From: a virus
Lineage: Duplodnaviria; Heunggongvirae; Uroviricota; Caudoviricetes
IMG/VR virus record: IMGVR_UViG_2778261635_000003
Reading direction: 5' to 3' (one strand)
Length of the DNA: 40,443 nucleotides
Positions within the stretch are counted from its first letter, which is position 1, and each line of letters begins with the position of its first letter. The notes under the pieces are model-generated. The model had not been told where the DNA came from. It was given only the letters and a program-made list of their open reading frames with translations, and made no database searches. Below, piece after piece: positions 15,048-15,443 of this stretch. The position numbers were made by a program, and so were the translations under genes.

Positions 15048-15230
15048 TGCGCGCTGAATGCGCAGGGTGAAAAATAACCATATATTTGATTATATACACA
15101 ACAAAAAATAAAAGTCATTGTACCTGCACATTAAACAATCAAATATACGGCGTGAAATAAATATTTTTCAGATTAATATTTTTGTCTCTATGTGGATATA
15201 ACCGTTTGTACTTATAAACTCGGAGGCATC

Positions 15231-15443
15231 GTGGAAAAAATAAAGAAACTATTTAGTTGCAAATACGCAGTCATACGTCGTGATGACCTGTCAGTTATAG
15301 TCGAAATGGATTACTTCCCTGAAACCCCAAAATCAATGATGTATCGTAATGGTCGAAAGGCAATTTTTTTACCGATGAGGGTAAGTGACATTATGGGAAA
15401 TGATAAACTGCTGGATGAATTGCGAGTCAGAGCATCCTGTTAG
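15231..15443 (+). CDS. Hypothetical small protein in AT-rich island
   Basis: 70 aa from a GTG with a GGAGG RBS; preceded by ~180 bp of very AT-rich non-coding DNA. Confidence 0.4.
   Translation: MEKIKKLFSCKYAVIRRDDLSVIVEMDYFPETPKSMMYRNGRKAIFLPMRVSDIMGNDKLLDELRVRASC

What the first reader, a model, noticed from the sequence alone, without database searches (positions are those of the whole stretch)
15050..15443. Highly AT-rich island with a 70-aa orphan ORF between hok and the DUF1367-like gene
About 180 bp of strongly AT-rich DNA with several promoter-like hexamers (for example TTGTAC-17-AAATAT) precedes a GTG-initiated 70-aa ORF with a GGAGG RBS and no recognisable family. The composition differs from the flanking nin-region genes, suggesting a recently acquired insertion with its own promoter that could be silenced by nucleoid proteins in the lysogen.
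Basis: seen in the sequence. Interest (0 to 1): 0.45.

Follow-up and report, generated by a model that had tools for sequence, protein, structure and literature searches.

The report
Small prophage antirepressor gene without SOS control
The "orphan" 70-codon gene is a real, conserved relative of GfoA, the small Salmonella Gifsy-1 protein that switches a prophage on by disabling its repressor, and it sits in the usual place for such genes but lacks the usual DNA-damage (LexA) control site.

Summary
Positions 15050-15230 have 31.5% GC, against 48.9% for the whole window. They precede a GGAGG/GTG-initiated 70-aa ORF (15231-15443).

The ORF is not an orphan:
- It belongs to PHROG 1813.
- A profile of its family matches GfoA, the tested Gifsy-1 antirepressor, over its full length (43-45 bits, E about 1e-6 for 1.8 billion proteins).
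- It lies directly upstream of DUF1367 (irsA), the slot that holds gfoA/gftA in Gifsy phages and rem in Qin.
- It uses a GTG start, as gftA does (gfoA uses TTG).
- The prophage has a short repressor of the GfoR/DicA class with no self-cleavage domain (8989-9408).
- The ORF is intact in 78 of 80 related loci, with pN/pS 0.33.

The AT-rich DNA is this gene's long leader. It always travels with the ORF (173 of 5426 E. coli genomes). Rare divergent alleles carry a strong LexA box there, and phages of other genera have LexA box-dinI upstream. This allele has neither, so its trigger is unknown.

The most likely function is antirepression, expressed by read-through of the early operon or from a weak promoter. 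Binding to the repressor was not tested.

Verdict: a new member of a known kind, of moderate interest.

The parts
14958..15045 (+). 3' end of the hok mRNA: two hairpins, the second an intrinsic terminator (15023-15045). This is the left boundary of the cassette.
   Evidence: Terminator scan. Sok family hit at 14653-14802 and HOK_GEF Pfam hit. The weak isrK hit here (30.7 bits, below the gathering score of 50) is only hairpin plus terminator. Megablast matches of most E. coli genomes stop at about query position 99, which is window 15048.
15046..15066 (+). Short GC hairpin (CGCGCTGAATGCGCAG) at the place where alleles L149 and L151 carry a roughly 55-nt segment with a promoter-like site and a LexA box. 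That segment is absent here.
   Evidence: DNA alignment A5. L149 sequence. LexA matrix scan.
15046..15221 (+). AT-rich leader of the antirepressor-like gene (about 31-33% GC). It is homologous to the leader of LexA-controlled alleles. Invariant blocks lie at 15106-15120 (AAATAAAAGTCATTG) and 15151-15162 (CGTGAAATAAAT).
   Evidence: Composition. Conservation with L011/L012, L005 and L149. Diversity profile over 50 unique sequences. No significant RNA structure, z = -0.10. No match to the immunity-region operators.
15089..15118 (-). Promoter-like site on the opposite strand, ATGACT-18-TATAAT (10 of 12). It is kept with 18-nt spacing in L011 (TACAAT) and in Salmonella L005 (ATGACA-18-TATAAT). Its function is unknown.
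   Evidence: Scan. My reading of alignments A4 and A5. Inference only.
15222..15233 (+). Ribosome-binding site GGAGG (15222-15226) and GTG start codon (15231-15233).
   Evidence: GGAG-N4-GTG is conserved in L011, L012, L005, L149 and L151. The upstream GTG at 15192 (83-aa form) is GTA in L011, so it is not conserved. All 80 related loci start with GTG.
15231..15443 (+). 70-aa GfoA-family small antirepressor candidate (phrog_1813). Predicted fold: four beta strands followed by a C-terminal helix.
15364..15370 (+). T7 run inside the ORF. A few database proteins (P0012, P0017, P0018) are frameshifted here.
   Evidence: Alignment A1. None of the 80 IMG/VR-derived loci is frameshifted, so these may be sequencing errors or rare pseudogenes.
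15444..15514 (+). Conserved spacer and leader of the next gene: TGGTATACT (15459-15467, like an extended -10), GGGCTGAACACCC (15475-15487) and GGAGAA before the ATG at 15515. This is the right boundary of the slot.
   Evidence: Alignments A4 and A8: the GGSCTGAAC...CGGAGAA...ATGGC block is shared with Qin rem-ydfU, Gifsy-1 gftA-STM2620 and SPN3UB gp59-gp60.
15515..16114 (+). DUF1367 gene (the irsA homologue), the constant downstream neighbour.
   Evidence: Pfam PF07105 at E 1e-96. It starts 284 nt after the ORF start in nearly all of the 80 loci. Lemire 2011 gives the order dinI-antirepressor-irsA.
8989..9408 (-). Prophage repressor and presumed target: 139 aa, an HTH_3 domain plus a C-terminal LLELFNQLPGSEQ...RLKEIDEYVEKYLRGR region, with no S24 self-cleavage domain.
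   Evidence: Pfam. 32% identity to GfoR over 125 aa, E 7e-19. The motif is shared with DicA and GtgR. tblastn with the full-length LexA and lambda CI proteins (which carry the S24 self-cleavage domain) finds nothing in the window.
9409..9504 (.). Immunity-region control DNA with candidate operators ATCACGAATCGTGAT (9420-9434) and AACACAAGATGTGTT (9466-9480), between the repressor gene and the cro-like gene (9505-9750).
   Evidence: The operator assignment is inferred from the palindromes only.

Best explanation
The ORF at 15231-15443 encodes a small antirepressor of the GfoA family. The prophage is a Rac/Qin-like lambdoid element. Its repressor (8989-9408) is short and cannot cleave itself, so it has to be inactivated by a protein that binds it and takes it off the operators, as GfoA does to GfoR and Rem does to DicA.

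The ORF occupies the canonical antirepressor slot, just upstream of DUF1367/irsA in the rightward early operon. The AT-rich DNA in front of it is its long leader.

In relatives the gene is switched on by DNA damage through a LexA operator. That operator lies either in front of an upstream dinI gene or at the 5' end of the leader. In this allele, which is the common one in E. coli, the LexA-box segment is missing.

Most likely the gene is made by read-through from the early promoter across the hok terminator, by analogy with FsoA of Fels-1, which is controlled by the phage repressor rather than by LexA. It could also come from a weak promoter in the AT-rich leader. It would then lock in derepression or act in trans on related repressors of co-resident prophages.

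Shown: homology, position, gene integrity, repressor class, and absence of a LexA box. Inferred: binding to the repressor, the target, and the mode of expression.
For: Homology:
- GfoA was recovered from Salmonella prophage loci with the published cloning primer.
- GfoA hits phrog_1813, the ORF's family, at 3.5e-11. It also hits phrog_340, which holds Rem as well.

Position:
- Distant homologues in the Salmonella phage SPN3UB, Citrobacter phage Chris1 and Aeromonas phage pAEv1818 lie between dinI and DUF1367 or its slot. In Salmonella prophage ZC-S1 the homologue is also directly upstream of DUF1367.
- gftA lies in the same place in Gifsy-1.
- rem follows hokD in Qin.
- All share the right-hand junction sequence.

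Gene and repressor:
- GTG start, as reported for gftA; the gfoA loci recovered here start with TTG, a few with GTG.
- Purifying selection and integrity.
- The repressor is 32% identical to GfoR, and the window has no S24 domain.
- Of 53 related loci with at least 8 kb upstream, 42 carry this repressor or its 61-64% variant. Only one carries a lambda CI-type repressor.

LexA control:
- Boxes of 24-29 bits sit upstream of dinI or of the ORF in relatives, including the E. coli alleles L008, L149 and L151.
- The best score anywhere in the window is below 11 bits.

Function of the family: GfoA binds GfoR and releases it from DNA, and FsoA is controlled by the phage repressor rather than LexA (PMC3121763). 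Rem relieves DicA repression (PMC10448788).
Against: - No experiment or interaction prediction links this protein to this repressor.
- Pairwise identity to GfoA is low: 31% over 39 aa.
- Homology to Rem and to GftA is not detectable directly. Pfam's Rem family PF27490 does not match.
- The family's defining control element, the LexA box, is absent, and no alternative promoter is demonstrable.
- pN/pS of 0.33 is looser than in the neighbouring genes (0.08-0.10), which also fits a gene of declining importance.
- The repressor-ORF association may simply reflect common descent of these prophages.
- The window carries a second candidate antirepressor system, isrK-C4-ORF6N at 16975-17807, which could be the real inducer.
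Confidence: 0.6

Rival explanations
1. It is a decaying relic. The gene descends from a LexA-controlled antirepressor, lost its operator and promoter, and is now silent or without function in this lineage. The AT-rich DNA is the leftover leader.
For: - The LexA-box segment present in L149 and L151 is missing, and the P0009-type alleles keep only half a box (TTCTGTATATATATATTTTT).
- pN/pS 0.33 is three to four times that of DUF1367, YdaT and the repressor.
- A few frameshifted or truncated database entries exist.
- No promoter is found above chance.
Against: - The ORF is intact with its GTG start and RBS in 78 of 80 loci. There are 48 third-position segregating sites against 24 and 17 at positions 1 and 2. 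pN/pS between the window allele and the 80%-identical allele is 0.27-0.29.
- The form without LexA is the prevalent one in E. coli: 173 genomes, against one or none for the forms with LexA.
- Leader blocks are invariant across 50 unique sequences.
Confidence: 0.15
2. It is a moron-type accessory gene: a horizontally acquired AT-rich cassette with its own promoter, silenced by H-NS, whose product serves the host or acts on something other than the prophage repressor.
For: - Low GC.
- Cassette-like behaviour, with sharp boundaries and alternative upstream neighbours.
- An upstream terminator.
Against: - The slot and orientation are fixed across Escherichia, Salmonella, Citrobacter, Klebsiella and an 'Aeromonas' phage.
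- It is homologous to a protein of known regulatory function.
- There is no terminator between the ORF and DUF1367, and no + strand promoter match.
- Relatives are under LexA control, which is typical of induction genes rather than lysogenic-conversion genes.
Confidence: 0.12
3. The functional element is the DNA or an RNA rather than the protein. For example, the conserved leftward promoter-like site (15118..15089) could drive a short transcript antisense to the 3' end of the hok mRNA, or the AT-rich tract could be a binding platform for nucleoid proteins.
For: - ATGACT-18-TATAAT scores 10 of 12 and keeps its spacing in three diverged lineages.
- The block holding the -35 element is invariant.
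Against: - The number of promoter-like sites is not above chance.
- There is no Rfam family and no significant structure in the leader, z = -0.10. The -2.4 z-score of the leftward 72-mer is due to the known hok terminator hairpins.
- The coding signal of the ORF is clear.
- In L011 and L012 there is no hok upstream.
Confidence: 0.05

Closest known systems
[quoted passage not shown]
   Same: - Detectable sequence homology over the whole length.
- Similar size (70 against 82 aa).
- Non-ATG start.
- Position directly upstream of the irsA/DUF1367 gene and outside the immunity region.
- A prophage repressor of the same short class with no self-cleavage domain (32% identical to GfoR).
   Different: - No dinI gene and no LexA box upstream. 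hok/sok and an AT-rich leader are there instead.
- Only about 30% identity.
- A different PHROG (1813 against 340).
- Activity was not tested.
Rem of the E. coli K-12 Qin prophage, antirepressor of DicA (PMC10448788)
   Same: - The same slot, immediately after the hokD terminator and before the next nin-region gene, with the same right-hand junction sequence.
- The same prophage layout: a dicA-like repressor, DicF, a cro-like gene, hok, an antirepressor, then Q.
- No LexA control, and the inducing signal is unknown.
   Different: - No direct sequence match: HMM scores are about 0 bits, hhalign gives E 0.038 and probability 1.4%, and Pfam PF27490 does not hit.
- The link is only through GfoA, which matches both PHROGs.
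- The Rem upstream region is not AT-rich.
FsoA of Fels-1 and GftA of Gifsy-2 (PMC3121763)
   Same: Both are small antirepressors that act by binding short repressors. FsoA is a precedent for an antirepressor controlled by the phage's own repressor and early transcription rather than by LexA, and for one that acts in trans on another prophage.
   Different: GftA (phrog_4847) shows no detectable similarity to the ORF family.
Tum of coliphage 186 and AntC of N15 (LexA-controlled antirepressors, cited in PMC3121763)
   Same: The same logic: a small protein inactivates a repressor that cannot cleave itself.
   Different: They are unrelated or larger proteins under LexA control. They were not compared by sequence here (known from the cited paper only).

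Membership tests
GfoA-type small antirepressors (Gifsy class) | Sequence homology to GfoA/GfhA | tested here: met
GfoA-type small antirepressors (Gifsy class) | Gene lies outside the immunity region, immediately upstream of the irsA (DUF1367) homologue | tested here: met
   The ORF start is 284 nt before the DUF1367 start in the window and in nearly all of the 80 related loci. The arrangement is the same in Gifsy-1, SPN3UB, pAEv1818 and ZC-S1.
GfoA-type small antirepressors (Gifsy class) | Part of a dinI-antirepressor-irsA operon preceded by a LexA box | tested here: not met
   There is no dinI homologue near the ORF. The best LexA matrix score in the window is 10-11 bits, against 24-29 bits for the boxes in relatives. 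CTGT-N8-ACAG matches are no more than chance. The matrix was built from SOS boxes recalled from memory, but it recovers the boxes of Gifsy-1, SPN3UB, Chris1 and pAEv1818.
GfoA-type small antirepressors (Gifsy class) | Non-canonical start codon (GUG/UUG) | tested here: met
   GTG at 15231 follows GGAGG and is conserved in all 80 loci. Lemire 2011 reports GUG for gftA. The gfoA loci recovered here start with TTG or GTG.
GfoA-type small antirepressors (Gifsy class) | Cognate prophage repressor is short, lacks the Ala-Gly/S24 cleavage module and belongs to the GfoR/GtgR/DicA group | tested here: met
   The repressor has 139 aa and only an HTH_3 domain. It is 32% identical to GfoR, E 7e-19, and shares the C-terminal motif. 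tblastn with the full-length LexA and lambda CI proteins (which carry the S24 domain) finds nothing in the window.
GfoA-type small antirepressors (Gifsy class) | Protein binds the repressor and releases it from operator DNA | not testable with these tools
   This needs an expression or binding experiment, or a complex prediction. Only single-chain structure prediction was available.
Rem family (Pfam PF27490) | Match to the Pfam model or the Rem profile | tested here: not met
   No Pfam hit at E <= 1. The Rem-family HMM scores the ORF at -1.5 bits. hhalign gives E 0.038, probability 1.4%. One family member (P0199) has a precomputed PF27490 hit.
Rem family (Pfam PF27490) | Gene immediately downstream of hokD in a Qin-like prophage | tested here: met
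Phage moron (independent accessory transcription unit) | Own promoter upstream and own terminator downstream of the gene | tested here: not met
   The scan finds no + strand promoter match and no terminator between 15443 and 15515. A consensus scan cannot exclude a weak promoter.
isrK sRNA (Rfam RF01394) at 14964-15045 | Score at or above the gathering threshold | tested here: not met
   30.7 bits against a threshold of 50. The true isrK copy is at 16988-17064 with 75.5 bits.

The most novel reading that the evidence does not exclude
The prevalent E. coli form of this antirepressor has swapped LexA control for a different, still unknown input carried by the conserved AT-rich leader. One possibility is a promoter silenced by H-NS and released by temperature, osmolarity or host signals, or one set against the conserved leftward promoter. 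Induction of Rac/Qin-like prophages would then be wired to cues other than DNA damage. Through trans-acting antirepression this could extend to co-resident prophages with related repressors in EHEC strains, and to the DicF/DicB-type division inhibitors.
Probability: 0.15. Interest if true: 0.6.

Novelty: new member of a known kind. Interest (0 to 1): 0.35.

Why it matters
The gene is called 'hypothetical protein' in every E. coli and Shigella record seen here, or mislabelled 'bacteriocin' or 'bacteriophage cohesive ends'. Assigning it to the GfoA antirepressor class identifies the likely induction switch of a common group of Rac/Qin-like prophages whose repressors cannot self-cleave. These include prophages of O157:H7, O55:H7, O111 and O145 strains.

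The loss of the LexA operator in the dominant allele raises the same open question as for Rem: what signal induces these prophages? It also offers natural allele pairs, with and without LexA control, for testing that question.

It is not a new kind of system.

Tried and rejected
- isrK lead. The weak Rfam isrK hit after hok suggested the Gifsy-1 isrK-orf45 read-through system. I rejected it: the score is below threshold and only hairpin plus terminator align. The published locus lies after antQ, where the window has a true isrK copy.
- Direct homology to Rem and GftA: not detectable.
- First AlphaFold run with 9 sequences: pLDDT 55, unusable. A run with an 80-sequence alignment gave pLDDT 82.9.
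- PADLOC, NCBIfam and Pfam: no hits.
- LexA box in the window: none.
- Operators of the prophage repressor in the leader: no shared 10-16-mers beyond chance.
- Leader RNA structure: z = -0.10.
- The related-loci run with the broad alignment A3 failed for lack of conserved stretches. A2 worked.

Full report
**What is there**

The window is a Rac/Qin-like lambdoid prophage. Its early region reads, left to right:
- a short repressor at 8989-9408 on the minus strand, followed on that strand by a DicF copy (7826-7877);
- a cro-like gene at 9505-9750, then ydaT and replication genes;
- hok/sok at 14653-14955;
- the ORF of the finding;
- DUF1367 (15515-16114), YbcO, and a Q-like DUF1133 protein.

Positions 15050-15230 have 31.5% GC, against 48.9% for the window. 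That puts them in the lowest 0.23% of 181-nt windows. GGAGG (15222-15226) is followed after 4 nt by GTG (15231), and an open frame of 70 codons ends at TAG 15441-15443. RefSeq annotates the same ORF as a hypothetical protein. The consensus scan gives no + strand site, and the total number of sites is what shuffled sequence gives.

**The ORF is a real gene**

I compared 79 IMG/VR prophage loci and several genome loci that carry a relative.
- The ORF starts with GTG in all of them and is intact in 78 of 80. One copy is cut by an insertion and one by a contig end.
- Segregating sites fall 24, 17 and 48 on codon positions 1, 2 and 3.
- Mean pN/pS is 0.33. Between the window allele and the 80%-identical allele it is 0.27-0.29.
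- For comparison, pN/pS is 0.44 for hok and 0.08-0.10 for DUF1367, YdaT and the repressor.
- The alternative upstream GTG (15192, giving 83 aa) is not conserved, because L011 has GTA there.

**The ORF has a family**

Pfam, NCBIfam and PADLOC give nothing, but phrog_1813 matches at E 5.8e-33. The close family is small: 29 representatives out of 1.84 billion proteins at E < 1e-3 with the narrow profile. A broader profile finds 315 clusters across Enterobacterales, including Klebsiella, Enterobacter, Citrobacter, Leclercia, Dickeya and Sodalis.

tblastn against phage genomes finds 28-55% identical homologues in the Salmonella phages SPN3UB and FSL SP-016, Salmonella prophage ZC-S1, Citrobacter phage Chris1, Aeromonas phage pAEv1818 and Klebsiella phages. 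In the four contexts I inspected, the gene lies directly upstream of DUF1367 (of other small genes in Chris1). In three of them it lies directly downstream of dinI.

**Link to known antirepressors**

Lemire et al. 2011 (PMC3121763) showed that Gifsy prophages carry the order LexA box, dinI, small antirepressor, irsA. The antirepressors (GftA, GfoA, GfhA) start at non-ATG codons and bind the short, non-cleavable repressors GftR, GfoR and GfhR, releasing them from DNA.

I identified GftA as STM2621.1n of the Gifsy-1 record using the published primers. It lies between dinI (STM2621) and the DUF1367 gene STM2620. I recovered GfoA from Salmonella prophage loci using the gfoA primer. It has 82 aa, a TTG start, and begins SNSALQ.

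Profiles of the ORF family match GfoA end to end: 43.0 bits, E 2.7e-6 (22 sequences) and 44.9 bits, E 7e-7 (80 sequences). Both E-values are calculated for 1.8 billion targets. In the other direction, GfoA matches phrog_1813 at 3.5e-11. Its own family, phrog_340, also holds E. coli K-12 Rem, the protein shown to relieve DicA repression in Qin (PMC10448788).

Direct similarity of the ORF to Rem or GftA is not detectable, and pairwise BLAST to GfoA is weak. The homology claim therefore rests on the profiles.

**Same slot**

In Qin, rem lies immediately after the hokD terminator and before ydfU. The window ORF lies immediately after the same terminator and before DUF1367.

The 45 nt in front of the next gene (GGSCTGAAC...CGGAGAA...ATGGC) are shared by the window, L149, Qin (rem-ydfU), Gifsy-1 (gftA-STM2620) and SPN3UB (gp59-gp60). 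Different antirepressor genes are thus alternative occupants of one slot.

In E. coli complete genomes, 2731 of 5426 match the flanks of the 571-nt query, but only 154 match most of it. The 394-nt AT-rich region plus ORF is found in 173 genomes, always as a whole.

**The target**

The window repressor has 139 aa, with an HTH_3 domain and a C-terminal region. It has no S24 peptidase domain. It is 32% identical to GfoR over 125 aa, E 7e-19. It shares the LLELFNQLP..EQ motif with DicA and GtgR.

Among 53 related loci with at least 8 kb upstream of the ORF:
- 37 carry this repressor at 97% identity or more;
- 5 carry a 61-64% variant;
- 11 have neither within reach;
- only one has a lambda CI-like repressor.

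This association is consistent with a cognate pair, but it may also reflect common descent of these prophages.

**The AT-rich DNA**

It is the gene's leader.
- It is conserved with the ORF in L011 and L012, where the upstream gene is an S8 peptidase rather than hok. It is partly conserved in a Salmonella prophage.
- It contains invariant blocks at 15106-15120 and 15151-15162.
- In the divergent E. coli alleles L149 and L151, an extra segment of about 55 nt directly after the hok terminator carries a strong LexA box (26.2 and 24.6 bits), followed by a homologous leader of about 200 nt.
- In L008 a box (26.5 bits) lies 27 nt before the start codon.
- In the phages of other genera the box (26-29 bits) precedes dinI.
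- The window, and all alleles 94-100% identical to it, have no box. The best score within 700 nt upstream of the ORF is 12.5 bits or less in these loci, and the best anywhere in the window is below 11.
- The 80% alleles keep only a half box.
- Forms with a LexA box are nearly absent from complete E. coli genomes: one genome, or none.

The leader shows no match to the candidate operators of the immunity region and no unusual RNA structure. A leftward promoter-like site, ATGACT-18-TATAAT at 15118..15089, keeps its spacing in three lineages. I cannot say whether it is used.

**Mechanism proposed**

The 70-aa protein binds the 139-aa repressor and removes it from the operators at 9409-9504. This would derepress both the leftward arm (DicF and others) and the rightward arm.

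Without a LexA operator, the most economical expression route is read-through of the early rightward transcript across the hok terminator. That would make the protein a feed-forward lock and a possible trans-inducer of related prophages. FsoA of Fels-1 gives a partial precedent: it is controlled by the Fels-1 repressor rather than by LexA and inactivates the Gifsy-2 repressor in trans. A weak promoter in the AT-rich leader, possibly silenced, is the alternative. For Rem, too, the trigger is unknown.

Homology, position, integrity, repressor class and lack of a LexA box are shown. Binding, target and expression are inferred.

**Structure**

With 80 sequences, AlphaFold2 gives pLDDT 82.9: four beta strands and a C-terminal helix. 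No solved or viral predicted structure resembles it. The AlphaFold database library was not available.

**Verdict**

It is wrong that the ORF is an orphan or a stray insertion. The ORF is a new, unannotated member of the GfoA class of small antirepressors, in the Rem position, without SOS control. Interest is moderate.

Noticed in passing
window 16975-17807: A true isrK copy (16988-17064, 75.5 bits), c4-a1b1 (16975-17027) and C4 antisense RNA (17090-17173) lie between the Q-like DUF1133 gene (16401-16955) and an ORF6N antirepressor-like gene (17226-17807). This is the Gifsy-1 antQ-isrK-orf45-anrP layout. The prophage therefore has a second candidate antirepressor or toxic-antiterminator circuit.
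   Followed up: partly
window 7826-7877 (-) and 8989-9408 (-): A DicF copy lies downstream of the short repressor on the same strand, as in Qin (dicA-ydfABC-dicF-dicB). Derepression would therefore also release a cell-division inhibitor RNA.
   Followed up: no
window 463-607 and 2169-2347: The SraC/RyeA and SdsR/RyeB sRNA pair lies at the left end of the window, probably in the host flank or at the integration site. A RalA antitoxin RNA (Rac-type RalRA system) lies at 2169-2347.
   Followed up: no
window 15459-15487: A conserved TGGTATACT (like an extended -10) and GGGCTGAACACCC lie in front of DUF1367. The GGSCTGAAC...CGGAGAA leader is shared by Qin, Gifsy-1, SPN3UB and E. coli alleles regardless of which antirepressor gene precedes it. 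It could be a promoter and leader for irsA/ydfU or a recombination junction.
   Followed up: partly
L151 (IMG/VR) 9001-9210; proteins P0019, P0023: Some alleles keep the N-terminal half (KYAVIRRDDMSVVAEMDYFPD) but have a quite different C-terminal half (...AIWIRSGRSLNVRALKPDERVVSPTVLREM...). L151 carries a GtgR-like repressor (68% identical) instead of the window type. This hints that the C-terminal half sets repressor specificity, but it rests on one case.
   Followed up: partly
L011 5514-9760, L012 4737-8983: In prophages with the 80% allele, hok is replaced upstream by an AAA ATPase plus an S8 peptidase gene pair. This is possibly a defence cargo in the nin region.
   Followed up: no
phage record PP818812.1 13551-14121: 'Actinobacillus phage vB_Apl-pPE4' carries this E. 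coli region at 97.7% identity, including hok and DUF1367. The host assignment of that record looks doubtful.
   Followed up: no
proteins P0015, P0016, P0176, P0168: Shigella and E. coli records name the 45-aa internal-start form 'bacteriocin' and the 70-aa form 'Bacteriophage cohesive ends'. Nothing found here supports either name.
   Followed up: no
L107, L114, L116, L140; L126, L133: Insertions of about 0.8-1.6 kb lie between the ORF and DUF1367. Insertions of about 0.6 kb lie between hok and the ORF, and there the upstream GC is 0.47. They are probably IS elements that uncouple the gene from its neighbours.
   Followed up: no
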